Shown here: positions 2,187 to 58,758 of the stretch, piece by piece
Position numbering within the stretch: the first letter of the stretch is position 1
Layout of the letters: every line of letters begins with the position of its first letter
NCBI GenBank assembly: GCA_965231055.1
Contig: OZ246411.1
Coordinates: forward strand, 116,711 to 180,710
Length of the DNA: 64,000 bases
From: an uncultured Candidatus Saccharibacteria bacterium
GTDB lineage: Bacteria; Patescibacteriota; CALEFQ01; G965231055
Direction: 5' to 3'
Notes under the pieces: model-generated
Told to the model about the DNA's origin: nothing
Databases searched by the model: none
The model's input: the letters and a program-made list of their open reading frames with translations, nothing else
Translations under genes and position numbers: made by a program

Positions 2187-2264
2187 TCAGCTTTCAGTAT
2201 TCATAAAAATCTACTCAACATCGCCTAAAACAAATGAATACTGATCGCTGAAAACTGAATACTT
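2187..2264. repeat. Family-A intergenic palindromic repeat (core TGAATACTGA-N-ACTGAATAC / GTATTCAG), immediately upstream of trpS
   Basis: Shares the 14-mer gaatactgatcgct with 25246..25262. Related copies at 15335..15450, 17290..17395, 25201..25270 and 39950..40050. Confidence 0.65.
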
Positions 2265-2275
2265 AATCTAAAAAT

Positions 2276-3253
2276 ATGCAAAGACTATTTAGCGGGGCAC
2301 GCCCCACAGGACAACTTCATATCGGAAATTACCTAGGAGCCATAAAAAATTGGGTGGATTTAGTTTCCAAATATGATTCCATCTTTGCAGCCGTTGACTA
2401 TCACGCTATCACCTCCCAGCACGATCCCAAGCAAATCAAGGAAGGTGTAAGAAATCTGGTACTTGATTATCTTTCTGTAGGACTTGATCCAGAAAAATGC
2501 CACATGGTCGTCCAATCAATGATCCCAGAACATACTGAGCTTGCTTGGATTTTGAACACCATCACTCCCCTTTCCGAATTACAAAGAATGCCTACCTTCA
2601 AGGAAAAAATTCAAACCCAACCAAAGGATGTAAACATGGCACTTCTTGATTATCCCGTACTCATGGCAGCGGATATATTGATTTACAAATCTGTTATAGT
2701 GCCAGTAGGTGAAGACCAGGCACCTCACGTAGAATTCACAAGATCACTAGCTAGAAAATTCAACAATCAATTTGGCAAGACATTTATCGAGCCTAAAGAA
2801 TACATTATGAAAACAGGGGCCAAGATAATGTCACTAAAAAGACCAAATGAAAAAATGAGCAAAACTGCCGGAGATGGAATTTTGCTTTCAGATAAACCAG
2901 AAGCTATAAAGAAAAAAGTGATGAGTGCTACCACGGATTCAGGCAAAGAAATCAAAGCAGGCAAAGACAAACCAGGTATTACAAATCTTCTATCTATTTA
3001 TTCCTTGTTTACAAACAAGACTATTGAAGAATCTGAAAAAGATTTTGAAGGTAAGAGCTACGCTGATTTCAAATCAGGTGTAGCTGATGCGATAATTGCA
3101 GGACTAAGGCCAATTCAAGACCTTCGAGCCAAATATGAAAAAGACAAAGGAGCTCTAGACAGGGTACTTGAAGACGGAGTCGCATATGCCAGACCGATAG
3201 CACAACAAACAATAAATGAAGTGAAGGAAAAAGTAGGACTCTGGACGAACTAG
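2276..3253 (+). CDS. trpS: Tryptophanyl-tRNA synthetase
   Basis: 325 aa. The N-terminal HIGH-type motif (TGQLHIGNYLGA) and KMSKT (KMSKS) motif are both present, a class I aaRS of TrpRS size. Confidence 0.9.
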   Translation: MQRLFSGARPTGQLHIGNYLGAIKNWVDLVSKYDSIFAAVDYHAITSQHDPKQIKEGVRNLVLDYLSVGLDPEKCHMVVQSMIPEHTELAWILNTITPLSELQRMPTFKEKIQTQPKDVNMALLDYPVLMAADILIYKSVIVPVGEDQAPHVEFTRSLARKFNNQFGKTFIEPKEYIMKTGAKIMSLKRPNEKMSKTAGDGILLSDKPEAIKKKVMSATTDSGKEIKAGKDKPGITNLLSIYSLFTNKTIEESEKDFEGKSYADFKSGVADAIIAGLRPIQDLRAKYEKDKGALDRVLEDGVAYARPIAQQTINEVKEKVGLWTN

Positions 3254-3320
3254 GTTGTAGGTTAGAGGAATTAGTGGAACTAGATGTATTAGAGGTTTTA
3301 GGTGATAGGTTTTAGGTTTT
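3241..3320. repeat. Family-B repeat copy (tandem GGTTTTAGG units plus TAGAGGTATTAG-like unit) in the trpS 3' region
   Basis: taggttgtaggttagagg...gtattagaggttttaggtgataggttttaggttttag. Confidence 0.55.
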
Positions 3321-3553
3321 AGAAAATTTACGTCATCCCTGCCTGCCGGTCAGGCAGGCCCAACTTGATTGCGCAAGCAAGCTTGATTGGGGACCCAGAA
3401 GTCGTCGTGGTTTAGTATGTAAAGAATACTATTACACTTATAAGCTAATACATATTAGCTTATATCCATTTATACCTCCTAAAATTAATCATATGTGGTG
3501 TCTGGATCCCCGTTTTCACGGGGATGACGACGAGGTATAGTCTGTTTACAAAA

Positions 3554-3582
3554 AGCCAAGCGCATTTCGCTTGTTTTTTTTG
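3554..3582 (+). terminator. Rho-independent terminator closing the trpS 3' region
   Basis: caagcg-cattt-cgcttg hairpin followed by a run of 9 T. Confidence 0.6.
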
Positions 3583-3585
3583 CGA

Positions 3586-3619
3586 ATAAAAAACTGGGTA
3601 CACGTGAATGCGTACCCAG
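3586..3619 (-). terminator. Rho-independent terminator of the 3667..3936 minus-strand gene
   Basis: ctgggtac/gtacccag 8-bp stem followed by T-run on the minus strand. Confidence 0.6.
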
Positions 3620-3666
3620 CAACTTTCAATGAATGAACTAGTCGATTATTTTCACACTTAACAACG

Positions 3667-3936
3667 CTATTTCGGGATGAAGATGTAAAGCAACATAACT
3701 ACGATATGAAATTTGAGCGTGCGAAGTTCAGAGATTATATCTTCGAGATAATCATTCTGAGCCGCGAACAAGCGCAAAAAAGGCTGATCCCTGTTTTGAT
3801 GATCTCTTGCGATGGAATCAACACAAACCACGACATATTCGTTTCGATAAGGTTTGTGTTCGAAAAGATCGCAAATCGCAGATTCCACTCCCAAAACTTG
3901 GTCCTGCGTAAAGCCTAACAATTCGATATAAAACAT
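3667..3936 (-). CDS. Hypothetical small protein (89 aa)
   Basis: Strong RBS (AAAAGGAGGG) 7 nt upstream of the ATG, its own terminator, and a non-repetitive composition. Preferred over the overlapping + strand ORF 3706..3918. Confidence 0.5.
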   Translation of the reverse strand: MFYIELLGFTQDQVLGVESAICDLFEHKPYRNEYVVVCVDSIARDHQNRDQPFLRLFAAQNDYLEDIISELRTLKFHIVVMLLYIFIPK

Positions 3937-4119
3937 CTCGCTACCCTCCTTTTGATGATGCCTTTTTCATAAAAAGCACTATATTATTTTATATAATAAC
4001 TCTTTTTCAATCCTTTGTCAAGAGTCATTAAAAAGCATCTTTGCCTACTCTCCTGTTTTTAGTGTAAAATAAGGCCAGAGACACGATGGAATATCCAAGA
4101 ATACCTATTTGATATTGAA

Positions 4120-5013
4120 ATGAAAAATATTAAGCTAATATACTATTTCATAAAAAGCTCACTGTTTGGGATCAAGCTTCCAATAGGTGTTTCAATAGAT
4201 GTTACAAATAGATGCAACCTGAGATGCGAACACTGCTACTTCTTTCAACAGGATCATAAAACAGAATTAAGCGACAAAGACCTCCTAAAAAGAATTCGCG
4301 AAATAAAAAAACAGTACCCCTCCATTATTCATGCGTCATGGGTTGGCGGAGAACCTTTGCTAAGAAAAAATATAATTGAGGAAGGATCAAAGCTCTTTCC
4401 TTTCAACATGGTAGTAACCAACGGCTCAATAGAACTACCAAAATGGAAAAATTGCGTATTCAATGTTTCAGTAGACGGCACCAAAGAGTATTACGAAAAA
4501 ATCAGAGGTAACAATATCTACGATAAAGTAAAAAAACACGCAGATCGTGATGATATACATGTAAACATAGCCTGCGTTCTTAACAAGAAGAATTACTATA
4601 CAATAGAACCACTCCTCGAAGAATGGAAAAAGACAAAAATAGGGGGAATAAATTTTGATTTTTATACACCGATAAAGGATATAGAAGAAGATTTATGGAT
4701 CAGCTGGGAAGAGCGAGACAAGATCATCGATAAACTAATTACCCTCAAAGAAAAATATAGAGATTTTATTTTGAATAGCAAATCAATACTGGAAATGATG
4801 AAATCCGATAGCTCAAAAAAAATTACCTCACACTGCCCTCTTCCCAAAACCATACTTTGTTTGGATCCAATGGGCCAAATAAAAACTCCGTGTGTAATAG
4901 GAAGCAAGGCAGATTGTCAAAGATGTGGATGCGTAATTCCTTTTCAAATAACATCAGTCCTAATAAACAAACAAGTGGACTCTTTTCATGTTACCAAAAA
5001 ACTATTTTTGTAA
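4120..5013 (+). CDS. Radical SAM protein with a C-terminal Cys-rich SPASM/twitch-like region
   Basis: CNLRCEHCY (CxxxCxxC) radical-SAM cluster motif near the N-terminus. A C-terminal cluster CPLPKTILC...C...CQRCGC resembles auxiliary Fe-S (SPASM/twitch) domains. Confidence 0.8.
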   Translation: MKNIKLIYYFIKSSLFGIKLPIGVSIDVTNRCNLRCEHCYFFQQDHKTELSDKDLLKRIREIKKQYPSIIHASWVGGEPLLRKNIIEEGSKLFPFNMVVTNGSIELPKWKNCVFNVSVDGTKEYYEKIRGNNIYDKVKKHADRDDIHVNIACVLNKKNYYTIEPLLEEWKKTKIGGINFDFYTPIKDIEEDLWISWEERDKIIDKLITLKEKYRDFILNSKSILEMMKSDSSKKITSHCPLPKTILCLDPMGQIKTPCVIGSKADCQRCGCVIPFQITSVLINKQVDSFHVTKKLFL

Positions 5014-5052
5014 AATCAAAAACTCTATGAAACTAAAAATTGTAAAATTGGA
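5009..5052. repeat. Left copy of a ~44-bp direct repeat. It duplicates the dut RBS/start region (aaact-c-tatgaaactaaaaattgtaaaattggatgtcagtatt).
   Basis: About 42/44 identical to 6297..6339. It creates a 16-codon mini-ORF MKLKIVKLDVSIIMTK (5017..5067) that copies the dut N-terminus. Confidence 0.8.
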
Positions 5053-5102
5053 TGTCAGTATTATAATGACTAAATAAAATTACTTTTTTAATACTAAAAC
5101 GC

Positions 5103-6293
5103 ATGGGAGCCGAGCAAATACCACAGATAGATACACAATCAGAGCAGGCACAACTACAAAAAATGCCAGAATCTGTTAAGAACAATAAATTAGAAGTGCC
5201 AGACCATCAAGAAATTGAATATTTGAATTTTACCAGCGACGAAAAAGCCGATGTTCTGCGTAAAATCTCAGAAAAGTTTTCTTCAATTGATAAGGTGGCA
5301 AACGAAGGTCTGATAGATTTCCCGACCACAAAAAAAGAAATTGAAGAATTTATCTTTTTAAACCCCGAACACTTCGGAACCAAAAGACTAGCAGAAGTTG
5401 CCTTGGCAGAAACAGAATTTGCCCCCAAATTGATAAGAGAAATAGCTGACAGAAAAGAGTATAGTCAATTAGAACAAATTTTACAGCAGCATAAAGAAAA
5501 ACCAGTCTTTAAACACTGCGTCGCGCAGATTGAATTGAGTCTAAAAGATGAGGGCATGCAAGAAAGTATACTCATGGCACTATCAGAATCTCTAGCAAAA
5601 GACGACGAAGCGGAAAAAGTTGCTTTTGAAAAATTTTCCGAATTCATGCTGGCAAAACCAGAAAAGGCCTCTAGAGATTTGGCCACTTATTTTGATTTTT
5701 TAGGTATCAGCGAAGTAAATGCTAAAAAATTATTGGACAAAAAAAATCTGCTATTAATTGGAGGAGGAATTGCGCCAATAAAAAATGAGCTACTAGAAAG
5801 AGGCATTGATTGTAGAGTCACAAATATTGAGCCCTTACTAAAAGATAATACAAGGGAAAACTCCGATCAACCCATATCTAAAAACTTCTACGATGTCAGC
5901 GCCGAAGAAATGGGAAAACATGACGAAATATGGTCTGCCAACAACTCCTTGCCAACATACGCCTTCAATCCAGAGCAAGTAAAAGTTTTTTATCAAAAAG
6001 CTCTTGGTGCTATTAATCCAGGTGGCTATTTAAGAGTTATCCCATTTCAAGGTTTTGCAGATTCAATAACGCCATCCATGAGATTAAGCAGACTTCCAAC
6101 TAGCAATGAATCAATTCGACAAGTAGAAGCCCTTCGAAAACGACCCGATCTTTTTGAAGTGGAAGAATTTGAGACACCTCAGCTTAAATCTTTTTTTGGG
6201 AAAAAAAATAAAATGACTGGAGTAAATATCAGAGCCATTGGAACCCAAGAACAAATTAATGCTTTTCTAAAAGACATTTCGGATAAAAAATAG
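5103..6293 (+). CDS. Putative class I SAM-dependent methyltransferase-like protein with an N-terminal acidic domain
   Basis: The C-terminal half has MTase-like motifs: LLLIGGGIAP (motif I-like), RVTNIEP, DEIWSANNSL, INPGGYLRVIP (motif III-like). This is a weak, fold-level call. Confidence 0.5.
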   Translation: MGAEQIPQIDTQSEQAQLQKMPESVKNNKLEVPDHQEIEYLNFTSDEKADVLRKISEKFSSIDKVANEGLIDFPTTKKEIEEFIFLNPEHFGTKRLAEVALAETEFAPKLIREIADRKEYSQLEQILQQHKEKPVFKHCVAQIELSLKDEGMQESILMALSESLAKDDEAEKVAFEKFSEFMLAKPEKASRDLATYFDFLGISEVNAKKLLDKKNLLLIGGGIAPIKNELLERGIDCRVTNIEPLLKDNTRENSDQPISKNFYDVSAEEMGKHDEIWSANNSLPTYAFNPEQVKVFYQKALGAINPGGYLRVIPFQGFADSITPSMRLSRLPTSNESIRQVEALRKRPDLFEVEEFETPQLKSFFGKKNKMTGVNIRAIGTQEQINAFLKDISDKK

Positions 6294-6296
6294 AAT

Positions 6297-6339
6297 AAAC
6301 TATATGAAACTAAAAATTGTAAAATTGGATGCCAGTACT
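6297..6339. repeat. Right copy of the ~44-bp direct repeat, overlapping the genuine dut start
   Basis: See 5009..5052. 29 consecutive identical nt plus flanking matches. Confidence 0.8.
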
Positions 6340-6732
6340 ACTATCCCCAAATACGCTCACCCTGGTGACGCTGGTTTGGATTTGTTTTCCAATACCGACG
6401 AAATCATCAGACCAAATGAATCAAAACTGATCCAAACCGGAATTGCCATAGAATTACCACCACTCACCGAAGCTCAAATCAGACCTCGTAGTGGCCTTGC
6501 TCTGAAAAATCAAATTACTGTATTGAACTCACCAGGCACGATAGACTCTGGCTATAGAGGTGAAATAGGGGTAATATTAATCAATCACTCTACCTCGGAT
6601 TTTGTTGTTAAAAAAGGAATGAAAATCGCCCAAATGGTAATTACCAATTTCATTTCGGTGGATGTAGAAGAAACTAGCGATATGAATAAAACCGCCAGAG
6701 GTGTGGGAGGATTTGGATCAACTGGAAATTAG
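6304..6732 (+). CDS. dut: dUTP diphosphatase (dUTPase)
   Basis: 142 aa with GDAGLDLF, RSGLALK and IDSGYRGEIGVILINHS motifs, the canonical trimeric dUTPase motifs. Confidence 0.9.
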   Translation: MKLKIVKLDASTTIPKYAHPGDAGLDLFSNTDEIIRPNESKLIQTGIAIELPPLTEAQIRPRSGLALKNQITVLNSPGTIDSGYRGEIGVILINHSTSDFVVKKGMKIAQMVITNFISVDVEETSDMNKTARGVGGFGSTGN

Positions 6733-6780: not shown

Positions 6781-7179
6781 ATGAAAGGATTCAATGCGAA
6801 CATCGAAAAAGAAACTTTGGAAAACACCAATTTTCGCAAGGTTCTCTATACTGGCAAGCATAGCCAGCTAGTTCTTATGTCTCTTAAACCAAAGGAGGAA
6901 ATCGGAATGGAGATTCACAAAGAAAATGATCAATTTTTCCGATTTGAGAAAGGCCAAGGCAAATGCATCATAGATGGCAATGAGTACAGCGTAGAAGATG
7001 GCTCTGCGATAGTAGTTCCAGCAGGAGCTGAGCACAACATCATCAACGTCTCTGAAACCGAGGATCTCAAGCTTTACACCATCTACTCCCCCGCCCACCA
7101 CAAAGACGGTATCGTGAGAACTACAAAAGAAGAAGCCGAAGCCAATGACGAGGAGTTTGATGGAAAAACCACAGAATAA
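6781..7179 (+). CDS. Cupin-domain protein
   Basis: 132 aa. Cupin motif 2 PxGxxHxxxN is present (VVPAGAEHNIIN). It is too short and lacks HxH for a confident acireductone dioxygenase call. Confidence 0.65.
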   Translation: MKGFNANIEKETLENTNFRKVLYTGKHSQLVLMSLKPKEEIGMEIHKENDQFFRFEKGQGKCIIDGNEYSVEDGSAIVVPAGAEHNIINVSETEDLKLYTIYSPAHHKDGIVRTTKEEAEANDEEFDGKTTE

Positions 7180-15324: not shown

Positions 15325-15334
15325 ATTTTTAGTA

Positions 15335-15450
15335 TTAAGTGTTCAGTTTTCAGTTTTCAAAATCATGAATACTGATAACTGAATACTTGCTTGCCCGCCA
15401 GAGGCGGACAGGCGCAAGCAAGCTAACCACTGAGTACTTATTGTACCCCA
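15335..15450. repeat. Family-A repeat copy plus a GC-rich hairpin (cttgcttgc-ccgccagaggcggacaggc-gcaagcaag)
   Basis: gttcagttttcagttttc ... gaatactgataactgaatactt. The hairpin segment gcgcaagcaagct is also present at 3380..3393. Confidence 0.65.
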
Positions 15451-25193: not shown

Positions 25194-25200
25194 ATAAATA

Positions 25201-25270
25201 TTAAGTAATCAGTATTCAGTTTTCAGTTGCACATTATTGAATACTGAATATTGAATACTGATCGCTTCCA
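25201..25270. repeat. Family-A repeat copy (near-perfect inverted repeat)
   Basis: cagtattcagttttcag ... tgaatactgaatattgaatactgatcgct. Confidence 0.65.
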
Positions 25271-39945: not shown

Positions 39946-39949
39946 GTTT

Positions 39950-40050
39950 TTAGTTTTAAGTATTCAGTATTCAACTTTCTGTACTTGGCAATCATTATAG
40001 ATAGCCAACTGGATACTGAAAACTGACTACTGCGTGCTTATTGTAACCAA
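39950..40050. repeat. Family-A repeat copy
   Basis: agtattcagtattcaac ... ggatactgaaaactgactactg ... cttattgtaacc (the tail is shared with 15420..15445). Confidence 0.6.
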
Positions 40051-49781: not shown

Positions 49782-50639
49782 ATGATTTCAGGATTTTTAA
49801 ATATCAATAAACCAGAAAACATCACTTCTCATGGAGTTGCCCAAAAGCTCAAATCAATACTTGGTACAAGGCGAATTGGGCACGCAGGCACACTAGATCC
49901 ATTTGCCACGGGAGTTCTTGTGATAGCTATAGATAAATCTACGAAACTCATGGAATATCTGGTTAACGACACCAAAGAGTACGTAGCTGATTTCATACTT
50001 GGCATGGAAACTGATACCCATGACAGAACAGGAAAACAGACCAATATAAGCAAAATTACATCTATTCCCCTTAGTGAAATCCGCACCGCTTTAAAAAAAT
50101 TCACAGGCGAGATAGAGCAAATTCCCCCCATGTATTCTGCTATTAAAATAAAAGGCAAAAAACTGTATGAATTAGCTAGGGCTGGGAAAGAAATAGAAAG
50201 AGAGGCCAGAAAAATCACCATATCCGAACTTGAAATAATAGAATATCACTACCCCCTACTTAAAGTAAAAATAAACTGCTCTAGCGGTACTTACATAAGA
50301 TCGCTCGCACACGACATAGGAAAGATATTGGGATGCGGGGCCTATGTAAATGATCTAATGCGAACCAAATCGGGAAATTTCAATATAGAAGAAAGCGTGC
50401 CACTTGAGGCTATCACAAGAGATTCAATAAATAAGTATCTAATTCCTTCAGGAAAAGCTATAGATCTACCAAGTTTCATAGCAAATCCAGATCAAATCTC
50501 GCATATAAAGATGGGTCAACCAATAAAATGCGAACTCAAAGATCAGAGAGTAATAGCCATCGATCCTAGTAAAAATATTCTCTCGATACTTGAAAAAAAT
50601 CCGGATCTAATGTATTATCCGAAAAAGGTACTTATCTAG
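49782..50639 (+). CDS. truB: tRNA pseudouridine(55) synthase
   Basis: GHAGTLDPFATGVLVIAI catalytic Asp motif. C-terminal PUA-like region. Confidence 0.9.
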   Translation: MISGFLNINKPENITSHGVAQKLKSILGTRRIGHAGTLDPFATGVLVIAIDKSTKLMEYLVNDTKEYVADFILGMETDTHDRTGKQTNISKITSIPLSEIRTALKKFTGEIEQIPPMYSAIKIKGKKLYELARAGKEIEREARKITISELEIIEYHYPLLKVKINCSSGTYIRSLAHDIGKILGCGAYVNDLMRTKSGNFNIEESVPLEAITRDSINKYLIPSGKAIDLPSFIANPDQISHIKMGQPIKCELKDQRVIAIDPSKNILSILEKNPDLMYYPKKVLI

Positions 50640-50640
50640 G

Positions 50641-50672
50641 TACTAGGTGTCAGGTTTTAGGTTTTAGACGCA
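50641..50672. repeat. Family-B short repeat (GGTGTYAGGTTTTAGGTTTTAG), left inverted copy flanking the four-helix-bundle gene
   Basis: Inverted partner at 51101..51133. The same motif recurs at 3283..3320 and 24180..24205. Confidence 0.6.
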
Positions 50673-51504: not shown

Positions 51505-54500
51505 CTATTGTATGAGGAAATAATTGAATCCTACATCATCCCCCACTGCTGTATCAAACTTGATAATAAATCCATTTGGAGAATCTTTTTCTATCCAGTA
51601 TCTAGTTGCTGGAGCATAATCATTTTCAAATGTCACAACAACTTTTGTAGTGTCAATTACTGAAAGATTTTCTACTGCAAACTCATCCGATCCTTTTTTA
51701 ACTATTCCAGATCCAGCCGAGCCATTTGGTTTTTCGTATATTTTAAGCTCTTCAGTAGAAATACTTTTTACAAATAGATTTCCGTTCTCATCTATTGACC
51801 ATTTGTTGCTCGCACCAACAATTGATCCTGTGGTGATCATGCCTGAAACAGAGAAATCACCATCTATTGCATTTGCATTTTGATCAATTCCGAGTTTGCT
51901 TTCCACATTTTCAATTCTTGAAATCATATCACCCAGAGAAGTAGTTTGAGCTTTATCTATTTCCAATAAATACACGGGTAATTTACTATAATCAACTGCA
52001 ACCGCATCTCCGTTTGAATTGTAAGAAATCAAATTTGTAAGTCCCAAAGACTCTAACTGACCCACTAAGTAGCCTATACTCTTTCTGCCCGAGTTATTTT
52101 CAAAAAGTTTTGGATCTAGTGAAAATATCTTATTCCAATCGTCACTAAAATCTCCAGACAACTCGCCAATACCAGAGTACACAGCAAGAGAGTTCTCTAT
52201 GCCGGAGATTCTATTTATCAAATCAGAAATATCATTGGAGAACGAAGTGTGTTGAGTTTTGTTTTTCGCTAAAGCGCTGTTAATCGAAACAATATCTCCC
52301 TCGCTATCATCCATTCTGTTATCGATATTTGAGATAAGCTGTCCATTTTTATCTATCATAACTTGTTGATCCTGCATGGCAAGAGTCAAAACTGGAATCA
52401 ATAGATCCTTCGCTACAGCCAAATATCCATCATTTCCTTCACTCACCATTTCTGGGAAAACTACTTGAGCTTCTTGAGCTACGAAACCATAGATAGTTGG
52501 ACCATCAGGATCCTGTTTTCTATTATATTGCCTTACCGTCAAAGCGTTTATAATACCTAAAGCATCAATATCGGCATCAGCAATATTGGTTTTCTTTCTA
52601 CTGTCAGAAGCATCAGCTAAAGAGAATGTTCCTCCGTTATTCTGAATATAACCAACATTGGTTCCATCACCATCATATGCATTTATGTAATAAGTGGTTC
52701 CGGTGCCATCATCTGCTCCTGCCTGTATCCTGATTCCATATCTATTTGCGTTATTTCCGTCGTTGAAAAAGTTAGCAACATAACCAGATGCTGAGTCTGT
52801 TTGCACATCCAAAGGATAACCAGCTGTTCCACTTCCAGAAGGAGCGATTAAAACTTGCCCGTCACCCTCCACAACCATTCTTCTCGTGCCATTTGTAAGA
52901 AAACTGATTGGGTAAGCACCTTGCTGATCCAACAGAAATCCACCACTATTTGTATTTTCTCCGTAAATATAACCTGCATCAGCATACAAACCAGCCATTG
53001 CCTGACTTGCAGCACCAATTTCTAACCAAGTACTTTGACCAGAAAGACCAACATCAGCCGCCGCGAGCGCGCCGGCATTTTGATTTCCGACGACAATACC
53101 TGCCGCAGCATTAGTATCATGATAAACATCAAGTTTTCTACCCGGATCAGAAGTTCCTATGCCCACATTTCCGGTTGGATTGAAGTAAACATCGTCTGCA
53201 GCGGTGATGAGCAAATCCTCTGAAGCATCAGAATTAGCTGAAATTCTTGTACTAGAAGTATCAAACTGAATATAGTCAGATGCAGGAAATATGAGATTTC
53301 CATTGGTATCAAAATAGTTTCCAGTATCTCCCATATAGGTTGTAGCTGTAAGATATGCGTTACCACCCGAATACAATGGATAACTAGCATTTGGATCAAT
53401 TCCTATGCCCACATATCTAAAATCTCCATCACCTGCGTTTGTTACTCTATAAGTAGTACCACCCAAATTCAAAGTTCCATCAGTATCAAAATACACTGAA
53501 GTCGTGCCAAGATATGTAATATTTTCCAAATAAACATTTCCACCATTTACATCAAGTCCGTAATTTCCATAAGTACCACCGATATAAACACCATAATCAG
53601 CTGTACCGCCTATATTCAAAGCCGTTTCTGTGGCATTTGCATGAGCTGATGCAATCTGAATATCAACACCATATAAATTATTTGATGCACCGCTATGAAC
53701 CGCATTGGTTATTGATACTGCTAGGCCCCTTTGAGTATCACTACCATTCATGGCGCCAGCAGTATATCCCATATAAATACCGTCAGAGCTGCTTCCTGCT
53801 GGACCAGTCGCTGTCACATTCACAGCTTTGGACGATGCCAACTGCGTACCAGCAACAACTGCAAGTGGAGTGGTTCCACCTGTTATGTATATACCGTAAT
53901 CAACATCAGCAAAAGCTGAGTTTATATAAGCTCCATAATCAGTTCCAGTTCCATTTTGAGTTTCTATATATGCTCCATAGTTCGATCTGGCTCCCAGTGA
54001 TTTTGCATACAAACCATAATTTGTTCTGCCGAGAGTGCCAGTAACATTCGTAGCGATTGCATCAGCATAAACAGCAACTGTGTTTAGATCCTGATACACC
54101 GCCGAATCGCTAGGGCTATAAACTGCTCCATACATACCCACGAGCGTAGTATCCCTAATCACTGCGGTATCCCAAGCATCAACCGCAAAATATCCACCCA
54201 TCAGCGAAAAAGTTCCGGGGCCAGTTCCCATATCTATAATGGAATCTTCTTCTATGCTAACAAGTCCTTCTACTGCCAATATATAATTATCTTCTGAGTC
54301 AGAAATATTTGATTTAACAACGTTTTGTCCGGAAACACCTATGCTTTTTACTTCTATTCTATGAGCCTCATTTGTGTTTACACGACCCTGAACTCCAGCA
54401 TTATATCCCGTAGATGCATCTTGAATTCTACCATCAACACCAGCAACATAAAGATCGTCAGATTTGGGATCTACATAACCTTGCAATCCGTGTGACCATT

Positions 54501-57500
54501 CAGAAACCGTACTGGCTCCACTCCTATAAACTTCCGAAGCAAAACCCAAAGAATTGGCGCTACCTGTTGATGTCATCACGATTCGCATAGCTGTTGTCCA
54601 ATCTTCCCCCACCCCTGCATTTGCGGTATTTGTTTGTTGCAGAAAAATTGATGCATCCCTTAAAACATCCGTAGAGTCCACAACATGCAGTTTATAAGAC
54701 GGGCTAGTTCCCACACCCAAATCATTTGCTACATAAACATTTCCACTATCAAAATACCCAGCCCAGTTAGTTGCTCCACCAGACGCAGTTGAATAAATAC
54801 CATAATGCGTAGCGGTTCCCGTACCGTTGGCCTGAAAGTATCCACCATAATTTGTGCCCGTTGCGGAATTTGCCCATCCCAATAAAGCACGCCCAGTGGA
54901 ACTAGAAGAGTAGGCATAAACTCCATAAGAAGAATTAGGATTAACACCATTCACAGCGAGATTAGTAGAAATCCTAGCTGCTCCGGTAATATCAAGCGGG
55001 TACGAAGGAGACATAGCAACTCCCAGTCTGCTGTTTGCCTGTATATAACCATCATTGACCTCAGCAACGCCAACCCCCAAACCACCATTTGCAACATAAG
55101 CGTCACCAGAAACATATAATGGATAGGTTGAGTTATGCGCAACATTAATACCAACATATCTAAAATCAGCATCTCTGTCTTTATAAATAGTTGCAACTTC
55201 TTGCATATATAAATCCCCCGAAATATTTACATTTCCACTAGCAAAGTATCCAGCCCAGTTAACCAAACCGCTATCTGCGGTCGCATATATACCATAATTA
55301 ACAGCAGCGCCTTCGGCAACCGATCTAGCATAAACGCCGTAACCCGAAGTCGCAGTTCCAGAACCAACATAGAAATATCCTCCATAGTTTGTACCACCGG
55401 CACCATCAGTAATACTGCTTTTCACACCATAATCATTTCCTGATCCGCCAGCGACTATTAAAAATTCTCCCGCAATATTTGAAACACCACCTCTAGCATA
55501 GCTAGCTATACCATAATTATTACTAGCTCCGGTATTTACACTAAAAGTACCGCCATAAACACTCGTATCAGTATGAGCTCCAAGAGTCACATTTGGAGAA
55601 ACATAAATACCGTCAACTCTAGCCGTGGCATCGTCCCCAACGGTTGTTGAATTGTATACATTTAATGTTCTTGTTTGACTATTGCCAGAATCTGCGACAG
55701 ATGAAATAAAACTAAATGAAGCTCCGTATTGAGTAGCAACTCCGAGGTTAGATGAAGTCGTTAAGAAATAATAACCAGACTCTCCATCCTCTTGAGACAA
55801 AGTAGCTTCTCCATGAATAGCTTGATTCGTGGTAACGCCTCCTTCAGCAGTCACATATAAACCAAAGTTTTCAGTAGCGGCTCCTGAAGCCACAAACCTA
55901 CCACCATAATTAGCATCCGTAGCATCAGCACTCTCTCCGTATACTCCGTAACCATCAGCACCGGCTGTTGTAACTATGCCATATATGCCGTAACCATTTG
56001 CAGATGCTGTAGACACTTCTCCATAAAAACCATAGCCATTGTCTGCTCGATCATTTGTTGCATAAGCTCCATAGGTATTGCCAGCTCCAGTTTTTGTTAT
56101 ATATATTCCATAACCATTATCTTCACCATTAAGAACATTTATACCCCTTGTAGTATCCACATCAATACCAACACCGAGCACCGTAGAAACATAAGCCTCA
56201 CCAGTTATATAGAAAGAATCATTGATATCAAAACGATCTTCCGCATTATTCCATGAAAGATATTTATCAGTAGGATTTGCTTCATTTGAAAAATACAAAT
56301 AACAATTTTCACTTCCGCCGCCAGCTCCACCGTCGTAGTTACAATATATATCTCCATTGCTCATCAGATCACCTGCATCAACCATGCCGGTGACTTTAAC
56401 ATCACCTTCAAACCAACCCGCCCAGACATTGTCAGCATCTTGCGCTTCTCCATAGATACCTATAGCCCAACCGCCATTAACTACGCTACCCCTCGCAATA
56501 CCATAAACACCAATATTTGAATCAGAAGATTCATCTGCAAAACCATATATACCTATATGACGCTCTTCCATAGAACCCAATCCCGTTGCTTCCCCTCTTA
56601 TTGCTATATTATCCCTAGCTGAATAACGAGAGGTATTCAAAACCCTAAGACCAGCATTGTAACTATCATTTATAATCGTGTCAGTATTGAAAAGAATCTC
56701 AGCTCCTATGGCTTGACCAGAGGGAACAGTAAGATCATCTAGCTGAAATCTATACGAGGGAACATCAGTACCGATTCCAAAATTTCCCCCCATAAAAACT
56801 CCTGAATAATTGTTGGTTGCATTGGCTACTTCAGAATATATTCCGTAGTTATTGTCAGAAGCACCATTCACCAAAATATTGATACCATTAATGGTACCGA
56901 GCGCACTATCCATTGCGATATTTATTCCGTATCCGTCTTCATAGGAATTCAAAATATTCAAACTATATCCTGCAATTGGAGTAGTGCCAATACTAAGTAG
57001 TCCCGAACTTATCGCAACATTGTCAGAGTAAGCTGGCGTGGGATAAATATAATCATCTCCAGGATTTGCATCTGTCCAAAGTCCAGCCCCTGCTGGTATA
57101 TCTGTGAGATACGCGACAGTTCCCGAAGCATCCTGAAAAGTGATAGTGTTTCCTGCTCCAGTTGGATCGGTAATAACAAAAGTACTAAAAACATTGTTAT
57201 CAGTAGTACCCTCAAAAACAAATGGAGATCCACCCAAAATTTGCGCACTTGCAAAATTGATATTTCCATCCGCAGTTATATTTCCTATTCCAGCTATGTC
57301 ACCAGTAGTAGAAATATCCCAGTCAGATGAATTGATATAAATAGCATCTCCTCCATCACCAAGAGTGAGTTGTCCCCCAGTCCCCACGGTAAGTGCTCCA
57401 TTCGCAGTAAGATTTGTACCTATTCCCGTGATACTATTTCCACCCATCGTAAGGTTAGCTCCGGTGATATCTATACCATTATTCGCATCTAGATTTCCTG

Positions 57501-58758
57501 TGAAAGTAACTTGTTGATTTGCTGATTGGTTTATTGCTCCAGCAGTAGTGATTGAGAAGTTTCCATTCACGGTAAAACTAGCGCCTGTTATATCAAGACC
57601 GTTTGTAGCATCCACATTTCCAGAGAAAGTTACTTGTCCAACACCCGTTTGAGTTAGAGCCGAGTTGGCCTGAGCAAATGTCCATGTTCCTAAGGTGCCA
57701 TTGAAAACAAGTGAAGATCCAGAAATAGAAAATGAATCCGAATTTACATAAGCAATAGATCCCGTACTGCCATTTACTGAATACATGTTCAATACCGAAT
57801 TGGTTGTAGATCCATCGCCTATTCTCAAAGTGTTCTGATCTACATCTACAGACAAAGCTGAGGCAAGTGTGTCGCCCCCGATAGAAACATCATTGGCTAA
57901 TACTGTTGGGTGCAAAACTGTTCCTGTTATAGTCCACTGCCCACCCGAAGCGCCAGACAAAGAAATCAAAGCATCAACTATCCCCCTATCTCCTGCAGCA
58001 AATGCGGCGTTGAATGAAGCGGTATCTGCAGTTAATGAAAATGGTATAGCGGTAGTGATTCTACTATCACTAAATGTAATTCCGTCAGAATTATTGAAAT
58101 TAATACTATTAGCTGTATTTGATGTTATAGAGATATCGGTTCCAGAAATAGAAACATTGTCTCCACCATCACCCAAAATCACCTGCCCATTTGATCTCAA
58201 AATACCATCCACTCTCAAACTTGCCTGCATCACAATATCTTCGTCTGTGATAGCTCCTCTTTCAGCAACGAAATCCAAAGTTATTTCTGATTCCAAATAC
58301 CCACCTATTTTTTCAGAATTCAAACTATATACAGTTCCACCTATTTTGGCGCGTGGGGTCATCTCACTATCTGATCCCACCTTGATTCCTAGATAATAAA
58401 CCGAGTTAGAAAAATTTAAATTTATAGGATTGGTTTCTCCCAAATTTACATTGAAAATTCCATCATGCACATATACAGATCCGTGAGTCTCAGACCATAA
58501 TGCACCTCCACCATTTTCCGAACTATAGATATTGAAAACTATTTGATAATTTCCATCACTCACATTTTCTCCTGCAGGAGTCCTCAAAAGACCCTGAAAA
58601 TTAATCATATTATCATAGGCTTCGGCAGTTCTTATGTCGCTGTTTCCGAAATATCCCAACAAAGCAAAAATCAGCGCTATAGCTGACGCCACGAGAGCAA
58701 CCATATTAAGTATTTTTTTGATTTTTATTTTGCTCATTTTACAATAAAAGAGTGCCAA
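51505..58758 (-). CDS. Giant (2417 aa) membrane-anchored Gly/Thr/Ser/Asn-rich fibre-like surface protein with a peptidase-S74-like intramolecular chaperone domain
   Basis: N-terminal TM anchor. About 2000 aa of imperfect repeats with recurring aromatic motifs (NYGIYA, GYGVY, NWAGYF). Residues ~2051-2140 (nt ~52340..52608) match the S74 domain: SDSRKKTNI...GFVAQEAQVVFPEMV...GYLAVAKDLLIPVLTLAMQ. About 280 aa follow it, including a second ...VDYSKLPVYLLEIDKA... segment. Confidence 0.8.
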   Translation of the reverse strand: MALFYCKMSKIKIKKILNMVALVASAIALIFALLGYFGNSDIRTAEAYDNMINFQGLLRTPAGENVSDGNYQIVFNIYSSENGGGALWSETHGSVYVHDGIFNVNLGETNPINLNFSNSVYYLGIKVGSDSEMTPRAKIGGTVYSLNSEKIGGYLESEITLDFVAERGAITDEDIVMQASLRVDGILRSNGQVILGDGGDNVSISGTDISITSNTANSINFNNSDGITFSDSRITTAIPFSLTADTASFNAAFAAGDRGIVDALISLSGASGGQWTITGTVLHPTVLANDVSIGGDTLASALSVDVDQNTLRIGDGSTTNSVLNMYSVNGSTGSIAYVNSDSFSISGSSLVFNGTLGTWTFAQANSALTQTGVGQVTFSGNVDATNGLDITGASFTVNGNFSITTAGAINQSANQQVTFTGNLDANNGIDITGANLTMGGNSITGIGTNLTANGALTVGTGGQLTLGDGGDAIYINSSDWDISTTGDIAGIGNITADGNINFASAQILGGSPFVFEGTTDNNVFSTFVITDPTGAGNTITFQDASGTVAYLTDIPAGAGLWTDANPGDDYIYPTPAYSDNVAISSGLLSIGTTPIAGYSLNILNSYEDGYGINIAMDSALGTINGINILVNGASDNNYGIYSEVANATNNYSGVFMGGNFGIGTDVPSYRFQLDDLTVPSGQAIGAEILFNTDTIINDSYNAGLRVLNTSRYSARDNIAIRGEATGLGSMEERHIGIYGFADESSDSNIGVYGIARGSVVNGGWAIGIYGEAQDADNVWAGWFEGDVKVTGMVDAGDLMSNGDIYCNYDGGAGGGSENCYLYFSNEANPTDKYLSWNNAEDRFDINDSFYITGEAYVSTVLGVGIDVDTTRGINVLNGEDNGYGIYITKTGAGNTYGAYATNDRADNGYGFYGEVSTASANGYGIYGIVTTAGADGYGVYGESADATDANYGGRFVASGAATENFGLYVTAEGGVTTNQAIHGEATLSQEDGESGYYFLTTSSNLGVATQYGASFSFISSVADSGNSQTRTLNVYNSTTVGDDATARVDGIYVSPNVTLGAHTDTSVYGGTFSVNTGASNNYGIASYARGGVSNIAGEFLIVAGGSGNDYGVKSSITDGAGGTNYGGYFYVGSGTATSGYGVYARSVAEGAAVNYGIYATADSGLVNWAGYFASGNVNISGDLYMQEVATIYKDRDADFRYVGINVAHNSTYPLYVSGDAYVANGGLGVGVAEVNDGYIQANSRLGVAMSPSYPLDITGAARISTNLAVNGVNPNSSYGVYAYSSSSTGRALLGWANSATGTNYGGYFQANGTGTATHYGIYSTASGGATNWAGYFDSGNVYVANDLGVGTSPSYKLHVVDSTDVLRDASIFLQQTNTANAGVGEDWTTAMRIVMTSTGSANSLGFASEVYRSGASTVSEWSHGLQGYVDPKSDDLYVAGVDGRIQDASTGYNAGVQGRVNTNEAHRIEVKSIGVSGQNVVKSNISDSEDNYILAVEGLVSIEEDSIIDMGTGPGTFSLMGGYFAVDAWDTAVIRDTTLVGMYGAVYSPSDSAVYQDLNTVAVYADAIATNVTGTLGRTNYGLYAKSLGARSNYGAYIETQNGTGTDYGAYINSAFADVDYGIYITGGTTPLAVVAGTQLASSKAVNVTATGPAGSSSDGIYMGYTAGAMNGSDTQRGLAVSITNAVHSGASNNLYGVDIQIASAHANATETALNIGGTADYGVYIGGTYGNYGLDVNGGNVYLENITYLGTTSVYFDTDGTLNLGGTTYRVTNAGDGDFRYVGIGIDPNASYPLYSGGNAYLTATTYMGDTGNYFDTNGNLIFPASDYIQFDTSSTRISANSDASEDLLITAADDVYFNPTGNVGIGTSDPGRKLDVYHDTNAAAGIVVGNQNAGALAAADVGLSGQSTWLEIGAASQAMAGLYADAGYIYGENTNSGGFLLDQQGAYPISFLTNGTRRMVVEGDGQVLIAPSGSGTAGYPLDVQTDSASGYVANFFNDGNNANRYGIRIQAGADDGTGTTYYINAYDGDGTNVGYIQNNGGTFSLADASDSRKKTNIADADIDALGIINALTVRQYNRKQDPDGPTIYGFVAQEAQVVFPEMVSEGNDGYLAVAKDLLIPVLTLAMQDQQVMIDKNGQLISNIDNRMDDSEGDIVSINSALAKNKTQHTSFSNDISDLINRISGIENSLAVYSGIGELSGDFSDDWNKIFSLDPKLFENNSGRKSIGYLVGQLESLGLTNLISYNSNGDAVAVDYSKLPVYLLEIDKAQTTSLGDMISRIENVESKLGIDQNANAIDGDFSVSGMITTGSIVGASNKWSIDENGNLFVKSISTEELKIYEKPNGSAGSGIVKKGSDEFAVENLSVIDTTKVVVTFENDYAPATRYWIEKDSPNGFIIKFDTAVGDDVGFNYFLIQ

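What the first reader, a model, noticed from the sequence alone, without database searches (positions are those of the whole stretch)
5009..6339. Methyltransferase-like gene bracketed by ~44-bp direct repeats that duplicate the dut ribosome-binding site and start codon
The sequence aaact(c/a)tatgaaactaaaaattgtaaaattggatg(t/c)cagta(t/c)t occurs twice: once just after the radical-SAM gene (5009..5052) and once at the genuine dut start (6297..6339). Identity is about 42/44. The 1.2-kb gene between the copies encodes an SAM-MTase-like protein.

This is the footprint of a recent insertion or duplicative recombination into the rSAM–dut junction. A 44-bp target duplication is unusually long, too long for typical IS-element TSDs. 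It leaves a 16-codon pseudo-start of dut (MKLKIVKLDVSIIMTK*).

It suggests the MTase is a recently acquired accessory gene, inserted next to a radical-SAM/SPASM enzyme.
Basis: seen in the sequence. Interest (0 to 1): 0.6.

Follow-up and report, generated by a model that had tools for sequence, protein, structure and literature searches.

The report
Gene insertion scar duplicating dut start
In a small-genome candidate-phylum (Patescibacteria) bacterium, one orphan methyltransferase-fold gene sits between two copies of the first ~41-57 bases of the dUTPase gene. This is most likely an ordinary scar of recombination, and the two copies may still be recombining.

Summary
The repeat is real, but copy A lies at 5020-5076, not 5009-5052. 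Copy B is at 6297-6353. Identity is 39/41 over the core with an exact 29-mer, fades to 10/16 over the next 16 nt, and is absent outside. It is the only strong repeat in the 64-kb window.

Copy A keeps dut's initiation region and 16 codons (MKLKIVKLDVSIIMTK*), starting 13 nt after the radical-SAM stop codon. The 396-aa gene between the copies has no Pfam, NCBIfam or PADLOC match. A confident AlphaFold2 model gives a helical N-domain plus a class I SAM-methyltransferase fold. The family is small, its named members are Patescibacteria/Gracilibacteria, and it sits in a different context in every locus read. None of those loci has dut, the radical-SAM gene or flanking repeats.

The gene's composition is host-typical, and both repeat copies share 10 derived sites against the closest known dut. 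The event therefore happened within this lineage.

In one metagenome (SRR10912418) the k=31 contigs break exactly as expected if a head-to-tail junction (circle or tandem copy of the 1,277-bp unit) is present, and not an empty site.

Best reading: duplicative single-crossover insertion at dut's 5' end, with repeats that still recombine. No empty-site relative exists to prove it. Interest is modest.

The parts
4120..5013 (+). Radical-SAM enzyme gene (297 aa) with a Cys-rich C-terminus; upstream neighbour of the repeat
   Evidence: PF04055 at 2.3e-12. The best NCBIfam hit, the PTO1314-family rSAM model, is far below its cut-off. Homologues at 64-74% identity lie in unrelated contexts in 4 MAGs.
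5020..5076 (+). Repeat copy A: a relic of dut's 5' end. It holds 7 nt of the initiation region and 16 codons ending in TAA (mini-ORF 5027-5077). The core is 5020-5060 and the exact 29-mer is 5026-5054.
   Evidence: Identity to copy B is 39/41, then 10/16. The relic starts 13 nt after the rSAM stop codon.
5040..5067 (+). Promoter-like site TTGTAA-16 nt-TATAAT inside copy A, 35 nt upstream of the methyltransferase-fold gene's ATG. Copy B has TACTAT at the -10 position.
   Evidence: Consensus scan, 10/12 matches. The region as a whole shows no more such sites than shuffles do, so this is a lead only.
5103..6293 (+). 396-aa orphan gene: disordered N-terminus, helical domain (~45-211) and a C-terminal class I SAM-methyltransferase-like Rossmann domain (~214-396)
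   Evidence: No Pfam, NCBIfam or PADLOC hit. 21 homologues; the few that carry a source name are Patescibacteria/Gracilibacteria. AF2 pLDDT 82.6, pTM 0.80. The top 50 Foldseek PDB hits are SAM-dependent methyltransferases or SAM-using NAS/CntL enzymes.
6297..6353 (+). Repeat copy B: the functional initiation region and first 17 codons of dut (exact 29-mer 6303-6331)
   Evidence: The N-terminus MKLKIVKLD is conserved in dut relatives.
6304..6732 (+). dut (dUTPase, 142 aa), intact
   Evidence: PF00692 at 8.5e-34. The closest relative is 85% identical.
5026..6302 (+). The 1,277-bp repeat period: one repeat copy plus the gene. This is the unit that would form the inferred head-to-tail junction (circle or tandem copy).
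   Evidence: Spacing of 1,277. Logan contigs of SRR10912418 cover 3504-5055, 5026-6331 and 6302 onward. Among the six simulated cases, only one with an added copyB-left/copyA-right junction reproduces these breaks.

Best explanation
Proposed mechanism. A single duplicative recombination event placed one gene (the 396-aa methyltransferase-fold protein plus ~26-40 nt of its own upstream DNA) at the very start of dut, in an operon that previously read rSAM-dut.

The most economical route is a Campbell-type single crossover, or the equivalent unequal or homology-anchored illegitimate exchange. The chromosomal dut start would recombine with a DNA molecule from the same lineage that carried the gene next to a ~41-57-bp dut 5' segment. 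Such an event necessarily leaves the homology segment on both sides of the insert.

The downstream copy (B) remains the working start of dut. The upstream copy (A) is a stranded dut start that now ends after 16 codons. Its 3' part has diverged and may have been turned into a promoter for the inserted gene.

The 29-41-bp identical cores are still substrates for homologous recombination, giving a head-to-tail junction (excised 1,277-bp circle or tandem duplication) in part of a natural population.

Shown:
- the repeat and its limits;
- the relic ORF;
- the fold of the inserted gene;
- the within-lineage origin of both copies;
- the contig breakpoints.

Inferred:
- the direction of the event (insertion of the gene rather than of copy A);
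- the crossover mechanism;
- the promoter;
- the physical nature of the junction.
For: - The repeat is 39/41 identical with an exact 29-mer, unique in the window and far beyond chance.
- Copy A starts 13 nt after the rSAM stop and copy B 10 nt after the inserted gene's stop. Both look like natural operon junctions, and homology begins 7 nt before each ATG.
- Mechanisms that create a flanking duplication (Campbell integration, target-site duplication) put the new DNA between the two copies. Here that DNA is exactly one gene.
- No transposase, no terminal inverted repeats and no other dut fragment in the window. This argues against transposition and against a larger duplication.
- Copies A and B share 10 derived sites against the closest dut (L013) and differ from each other at 2 of 41. 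Codon usage, GC and GC3 of the gene are typical of the host. The partner DNA therefore came from the same lineage.
- The gene family has a different context in each of about nine homologue neighbourhoods read. None has dut or rSAM nearby, and the six loci tested have no flanking repeats. One homologue lies next to a VirD4/TraG-like protein.
- Three independent assemblies give the same sequence with 0 mismatches.
- In SRR10912418 the k=31 contigs (PMC12424806) break at 5055, 5026/6331 and 6302. In simulation, only an added copyB-left/core/copyA-right 31-mer reproduces all three breaks. An empty-site junction or SNP variants do not.
Against: - No relative with an uninterrupted rSAM-dut junction, and none with the gene directly upstream of dut, was found. 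Synteny is not conserved even in the closest relatives, so the pre-insertion state is inferred and not observed.
- The gene shows no compositional sign of being foreign.
- Mismatches are unevenly spread: 2/41 against 6/16, Fisher p=0.004. A simple one-step duplication followed by neutral decay does not predict this. It needs an added assumption: a junction at about 5061, gene conversion of the core, or selection on the -10-like box.
- The head-to-tail junction is deduced from contig ends, not seen in reads. Two or more chimeric reads from library PCR could produce the same 31-mer.
- A circle or donor carrying a 41-57-bp dut segment has to be postulated.
Confidence: 0.5

Rival explanations
1. 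Copy A is the newcomer. The order rSAM-gene-dut is old, and a 41-57-nt copy of the dut start was later written into the rSAM-gene spacer. The route would be template switching, ectopic gene conversion or templated repair of a break. It may have been kept because it gives the downstream gene a promoter or initiation region.
For: - The gene's composition is fully host-like.
- Both copies come from the same lineage.
- Copy A carries a perfect TATAAT with a TTGTAA -35 at 16-nt spacing, 35 nt before the gene's ATG. Copy B has only TACTAT there.
- Mismatches cluster around that box.
Against: - The left end of copy A coincides with the start of the dut initiation region and begins 13 nt after the rSAM stop codon, as a genuine rSAM-dut junction would. 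For a random patch this is a coincidence.
- Short templated insertions copied from 1.2 kb away are not a well-documented process in bacteria (own knowledge).
- Promoter-like hits are not enriched in this AT-rich region: 14 found against 11.4 expected.
Confidence: 0.2
2. The 1,277-bp unit is a recombinase-less mobilisable cassette. The 41-bp repeats are attL/attR sites of a site-specific recombinase encoded elsewhere in the genome, and that enzyme excises and reinserts the unit at the dut start.
For: - A head-to-tail (circle-type) junction is inferred in one metagenome, without the reciprocal empty-site junction.
- Repeats of 40-60 bp that rebuild the end of a target gene are typical of integrative elements (own knowledge).
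- The gene family sits in variable contexts, once beside a T4SS coupling protein.
Against: - No recombinase lies in the unit or among the neighbouring genes examined.
- Six other loci with the gene family show no flanking repeats.
- The core has no internal inverted-repeat arms in the repeat scan.
- There are no viral or element-like hits.
- Ordinary RecA-type exchange between 29-41-bp repeats explains the junction equally well.
Confidence: 0.1
3. A larger tandem duplication involving dut and the neighbouring gene was followed by deletions. These removed all of the first dut copy except its first ~57 nt.
For: Tandem duplication followed by loss is common in bacterial genomes (own knowledge). 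Similarity fades gradually over 5061-5076, as in a decaying pseudogene.
Against: - It needs at least two further precise deletions.
- No second copy of the gene and no dut 3' fragment exists anywhere in the window.
- Similarity is at background right after 5077.
Confidence: 0.08
4. Assembly artefact: the repeat or the gene order results from misjoining of reads.
For: One Logan assembly breaks at the repeat.
Against: The NCBI contig of 843,892 bp and a 28,755-bp Logan contig that occurs in two samples both run straight through both copies, with 0 mismatches to the window. The two copies differ by diagnostic mismatches, and a 29-nt exact repeat is shorter than k-1, so k=31 assembly is not confused by it.
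Confidence: 0.02

Closest known systems
Campbell-type (single-crossover) integration of circular DNA, and the related homology-facilitated illegitimate recombination of transforming DNA
   Same: The inserted DNA is flanked by direct repeats that are copies of a segment of the target. The target gene stays intact on one side and a truncated copy is left on the other. The repeats allow later excision or amplification. A head-to-tail junction is inferred here.
   Different: The homology is only ~41-57 bp, close to the lower limit for RecA-dependent exchange (own knowledge). The donor molecule is not observed. No plasmid, phage or selectable marker is involved. The insert is a single chromosomal-looking gene.
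Integrative elements whose attL/attR repeats rebuild the end of the target gene (for example islands inserted in tRNA or protein-gene ends)
   Same: The direct repeats contain the end of a housekeeping gene, so the gene remains functional after insertion. The repeat length of tens of bp is similar.
   Different: There is no integrase, the unit is only 1.28 kb with one cargo gene, the 5' end of a protein gene is duplicated and not a 3' end, and other family members lack such repeats.
Class I SAM-dependent methyltransferases and SAM-using relatives with an N-terminal helical domain (nicotianamine synthase MtNAS 3fpg/3fpj, CntL 7c9m, plant O-methyltransferases)
   Same: The predicted C-terminal domain has seven strands with the glycine-rich loop LLLIGGG after the first strand and an acidic residue (E/D243) after the second. 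All top Foldseek matches belong to this fold.
   Different: No sequence-family match. Foldseek E-values are only about 1e-4, with TM 0.3-0.55. The conserved motifs NSLPTYAF and TPxMRLxRxPxNN are specific to this family. Substrate and chemistry are unknown.

Membership tests
IS element / transposon insertion with target-site duplication | Transposase gene inside the element | tested here: not met
   The only ORF between the repeats has a methyltransferase fold and no Pfam or NCBIfam transposase hit.
IS element / transposon insertion with target-site duplication | Terminal inverted repeats at the ends of the insert | tested here: not met
   Local alignment of 5061-5130 against the reverse complement of 6227-6296 scores 9. 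The shuffle mean is 8.3, and 38% of shuffles score as high.
IS element / transposon insertion with target-site duplication | Short target duplication (about 2-14 bp) | tested here: not met
   The duplicated segment is 41-57 bp.
Site-specific integrative element (attL/attR) | Tyrosine or serine recombinase encoded in or next to the element | tested here: not met
   None in the unit or among RNase J, TrpRS, orf89, rSAM, dut, cupin, orf130 and MtnA. The rest of the genome was not examined.
Site-specific integrative element (attL/attR) | Excised circular form with a single att junction | tested here: inconclusive
   A copyB-left/copyA-right 31-mer is implied by contig breaks in SRR10912418. It fits a circle, a tandem duplication or PCR chimeras equally well.
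Campbell-type / homology-driven duplicative insertion | Insert flanked by direct repeats identical to a segment of the target gene, with one intact and one truncated copy | tested here: met
Campbell-type / homology-driven duplicative insertion | Empty site (rSAM-dut without the insert) in relatives or in the population | tested here: inconclusive
   No syntenic relative was found in genome, metagenome or Logan look-ups. The contig breaks do not fit an empty-site junction.
Class I SAM-dependent methyltransferase | Seven-stranded Rossmann-like fold | tested here: met
   AF2 model with strands 214-219, 237-242, 256-258, 273-278, 304-312, 351-357 and 372-378, pLDDT mostly above 90 there. The 50 best Foldseek PDB hits listed are all SAM-dependent enzymes, 34 of them at E<=1e-3.
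Class I SAM-dependent methyltransferase | Glycine-rich SAM-binding loop after strand 1 and an acidic residue at the end of strand 2 | tested here: met
   G220, G221 and G222 are invariant within LLLIGGG. Position 243 in TNI(E/D)P is E or D in all 21 sequences. The motif assignment is by inspection, not by structural superposition.
Class I SAM-dependent methyltransferase | Significant match to a curated methyltransferase sequence family | tested here: not met
   No Pfam or NCBIfam hit for the protein. A PDB profile search gives nothing below E=0.09. Among 10 distant relatives, one has a weak Methyltransf_23 hit, E=0.006 and below the cut-off.
Class I SAM-dependent methyltransferase | SAM binding and methyl transfer | not testable with these tools
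   Needs biochemistry.

The most novel reading that the evidence does not exclude
The 1,277-bp unit is a minimal self-contained mobile cassette with no recombinase. It cycles between a circular form and the chromosome using only ~30-40 bp of homology to the start of an essential gene, and it rebuilds that start each time. Alternatively it varies in copy number as a switch for the methyltransferase-fold gene. Either way it would be a route of gene flow or gene dosage control in Patescibacteria, which have few classical mobile elements.
Probability: 0.07. Interest if true: 0.6.

Novelty: new member of a known kind. Interest (0 to 1): 0.3.

Why it matters
This is a clean natural example of how a single gene can be slotted into an operon of a reduced Patescibacteria genome without destroying the essential gene it lands on. 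It also shows that the resulting short repeats may keep recombining in the environment.

It flags an uncharacterised methyltransferase-fold family confined to this group: 21 clusters at 90% identity and about 160 representatives at 50% identity.

If read-level data confirmed the head-to-tail junction, the locus would be a handy marker for studying recombination and copy-number variation in organisms that cannot be cultured.

Otherwise it is an ordinary rearrangement scar with no new principle.

Tried and rejected
- Looked for an empty site or a donor arrangement. rSAM homologues in GTDB genomes (4 loci), the nearest dut relatives and about nine neighbourhoods of the inserted gene's family all have unrelated contexts, so synteny cannot decide.
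- Exact-protein look-ups of rSAM, dut and the gene found only the same population: the NCBI contig plus SRR10912415 and SRR10912418. The TrpRS look-up added SRR10912416.
- Tested whether flanking repeats are a family property: none in six homologue loci.
- Tested for other dut fragments or gene copies in the window: none.
- Tested for terminal inverted repeats: none.
- Tested for foreign composition: none.
- Tested viral association of the gene family and of the 29-mer core: none.
- Rfam and tRNA scans of the window were empty, so the repeat is not part of an RNA gene or a tRNA-type att site.
- Checked whether homology extends beyond 5077 as a decayed pseudogene: identity there is at background.
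- Simulated alternative causes of the contig breaks (empty site, SNP in copy A, SNP in copy B, both junctions): none reproduces the observed ends.
Full report
**1. The observation**

The region reads, all on the + strand:
- a radical-SAM gene (4120-5013);
- a short relic (5020-5076);
- a 396-codon ORF (5103-6293);
- dut (6304-6732);
- a cupin gene (6781-7179).

The repeat finder reports one family here: 5020-5076 against 6297-6353, 57 nt at 86%, spacing 1,277. The 28-mer ATGAAACTAAAAATTGTAAAATTGGATG occurs exactly twice in the 64-kb window, with none expected even at 3 mismatches. blastn gives E=3e-12. A scan of the whole window finds no other repeat of comparable quality.

In register, identity is 39/41 for 5020-5060 and 10/16 for 5061-5076. 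The second value is matched by only 1 of 114 shifted registers. Identity is at background before 5020 and after 5077.

**2. The organism and the quality of the sequence**

The three proteins occur on an 843,892-bp NCBI contig and in Logan assemblies of SRR10912415 and SRR10912418. All fetched contigs match the window without a mismatch, and one 28,755-bp contig runs through both repeat copies. An assembly artefact is therefore excluded.

The few homologues of the inserted gene that carry a source name are labelled Patescibacteria or Gracilibacteria. Standard code 11 gives intact genes.

**3. The gene between the repeats**

It has no Pfam, NCBIfam or PADLOC match and no significant sequence match in the PDB. 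There are 21 homologues at E<=1e-3 in 5.8 billion clusters. A profile search finds 159 representatives, most of them matching only the C-terminal half. Ten of these distant relatives also lack Pfam domains, apart from one sub-threshold Methyltransf_23 hit.

The AlphaFold2 model built on the 21-sequence alignment is confident (pLDDT 82.6, pTM 0.80). It shows a disordered N-terminus, a helical domain (~45-211) and a seven-stranded alpha/beta domain (214-396).

The 50 best Foldseek matches listed against the PDB are all SAM-dependent methyltransferases or SAM-using nicotianamine-synthase/CntL enzymes (E about 1e-4, TM to target up to 0.55).

Invariant residues include GGG in LLLIGGG after strand 1 and an E/D after strand 2, plus the family-specific motifs NSLPTYAF and TPxMRLxRxPxNN.

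So 'SAM-methyltransferase-like' is right as a fold statement. Membership in any curated family is not met, and the substrate is unknown.

**4. Is it an insertion? Comparative evidence**

- The closest dut (85% aa, L013) has a nucleoside-deoxyribosyltransferase-like gene overlapping its start and a different downstream gene. The next ones (about 71%) differ again.
- The closest rSAM homologues (64-74%) are followed by cyclophilin, unknown genes, a divergent HTH gene or SecDF.
- About nine homologue neighbourhoods of the methyltransferase-fold gene are all different. None has dut or the rSAM gene nearby. One is next to a VirD4/TraG-like coupling protein.
- None of the six homologue loci tested has a repeat linking its upstream flank to the start of its downstream gene. 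Only the window does (score 43 against a shuffle maximum of 21).

The repeat is therefore a one-off event in this lineage and not a property of the gene family.

**5. Clues to origin**

GC (0.368), GC3 (0.295) and codon usage of the gene are typical of the 44 genes called in the window.

Over the 41-nt core, copies A and B agree with each other but differ from L013 at 10 positions. They differ from each other at only 2. Both copies thus derive from this same lineage, long after its split from the nearest known relative.

Copy B matches L013 where copy A does not (1 site in the core, more in the tail), so copy A is the decaying one.

Copy A starts 13 nt after the rSAM stop codon and copy B 10 nt after the inserted gene's stop. 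Homology begins 7 nt before each ATG. Both junctions look like natural operon junctions.

There are no terminal inverted repeats, no second dut fragment or second gene copy in the window, no tRNA or Rfam RNA, and no recombinase or transposase among the neighbours.

**6. A sign that the repeats are still active**

Logan assemblies use k=31, drop k-mers seen only once, and contain each 31-mer once per accession (PMC12424806).

In SRR10912418 the locus is split into three contigs covering window 3504-5055, 5026-6331 and 6302 onward. They overlap by exactly 30 nt and end exactly at the edges of the 29-nt exact core.

A 29-nt repeat cannot by itself branch a k=31 graph, and the reference alone gives one unbroken unitig in simulation. 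Adding the single junction copyB-left/core/copyA-right reproduces all three observed boundaries. The other cases predict different ends: the empty-site junction gives 5054 / 5025-6332 / 6303, and so do both junctions together or an SNP in either copy.

The sample therefore appears to contain at least two reads in which the end of the unit is joined to its beginning. That could be an excised 1,277-bp circle, a tandem duplication, or (less interestingly) PCR chimeras. In two other samples the contig passes straight through.

**7. The mechanism I consider most likely (confidence about 0.5)**

An operon reading rSAM-dut recombined once with a same-lineage DNA molecule that carried the gene next to a 41-57-bp dut 5' segment. 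The exchange was a Campbell-type single crossover or an equivalent unequal or homology-anchored illegitimate exchange. Such an event must leave the homology segment on both sides of the new DNA.

The downstream copy keeps dut intact, and the upstream copy became a 16-codon relic. The identical 29-41-bp cores then allow RecA-type exchange, which accounts for the head-to-tail junction.

One feature is not explained by simple neutral decay. Mismatches are concentrated at 5055-5071 (2/41 against 6/16, Fisher p=0.004). There, two of the changes turn TACTAT into a perfect TATAAT, 16 nt after a TTGTAA and 35 nt before the gene's ATG.

That could be the real junction, gene conversion of the core, or selection for a promoter. 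Because promoter-like hits are not enriched in this AT-rich DNA, I treat the promoter as a lead only.

**8. Rivals**

- Copy A is a later patch in an old rSAM-gene-dut operon (0.2). This fits the host-like composition and the promoter idea. It makes the natural-looking rSAM/copy A junction a coincidence and relies on a poorly documented mechanism.
- A recombinase-less att-flanked cassette (0.1). This fits a circle junction without an empty site, but no recombinase was found and other family members lack repeats.
- A larger duplication plus deletions (0.08). This needs several precise steps and leaves no remnants.
- An artefact (0.02). This is excluded by three concordant assemblies.

**9. Verdict**

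'Recently acquired from elsewhere' is not supported. The event was within the lineage, and the gene looks native by composition.

The case is a new member of a known kind (a homology-flanked gene insertion with recombinogenic repeats) that carries an uncharacterised Patescibacteria-restricted methyltransferase-fold gene. Interest is modest (0.3). It would rise if reads confirmed a circular or amplifying cassette.

Noticed in passing
window 3255-3580 (+): A GC-rich, hairpin-rich intergenic stretch lies after the TrpRS/TyrRS-type gene. The predicted fold is -97.5 kcal/mol, z=-3.5 against shuffles. It has no Rfam or tRNA match. Logan contigs from several samples end at about 3411 (L026) or start at exactly 3504 (L001, L024). 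The segment 3411-3504 is therefore either variable between strains or repeated elsewhere in the genome.
   Followed up: partly
window 3293-3323 and 50638-50668: Runs of the heptamer AGGTTTT (31 nt, 87% alike) sit at the end of, or shortly after, + strand genes. One starts 40 nt after the TrpRS-type gene, which ends at 3253. The other starts at the last bases of the gene ending at 50639 (family D5). Function unknown.
   Followed up: no
window 2239-2266, 15325-15355, 25198-25228, 39946-39976: A shared motif around AGTATTCAGTTTTCAGT lies directly upstream of four gene starts, in the same orientation relative to each gene (D1/I1/I4; gene calls). It may be a common promoter or leader element.
   Followed up: no
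window 6304-6732: The dUTPase of this Patescibacteria genome is 65-72% identical to many cyanobacterial dUTPases (Stanieria, Xenococcus, Nostoc, Dolichospermum). That is about as close as all but one of the unnamed metagenomic hits. It hints at an old transfer of dut between the groups.
   Followed up: no
window 4120-5013; loci L009-L012: The radical-SAM gene has 64-74% identical homologues in MAGs labelled Saccharibacteria, Aenigmatarchaeota and Methanosarcinales, each in a different context. The gene therefore looks patchily distributed or horizontally mobile. Its best named resemblances (PTO1314-family rSAM, prokaryotic viperin models) are all far below threshold.
   Followed up: partly
L003 3017-3457; L030 1-2019: In L003 the homologue of the methyltransferase-fold gene is preceded by a distant paralogue (31% identity over 149 aa). 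In L030 (Gracilibacteria MAG) the homologue lies two genes downstream of a VirD4/TraG-like type IV secretion coupling protein.
   Followed up: no
window 51505-58737 (-): A very large ORF of 2,411 codons appears among the crude gene calls. It was not examined.
   Followed up: no
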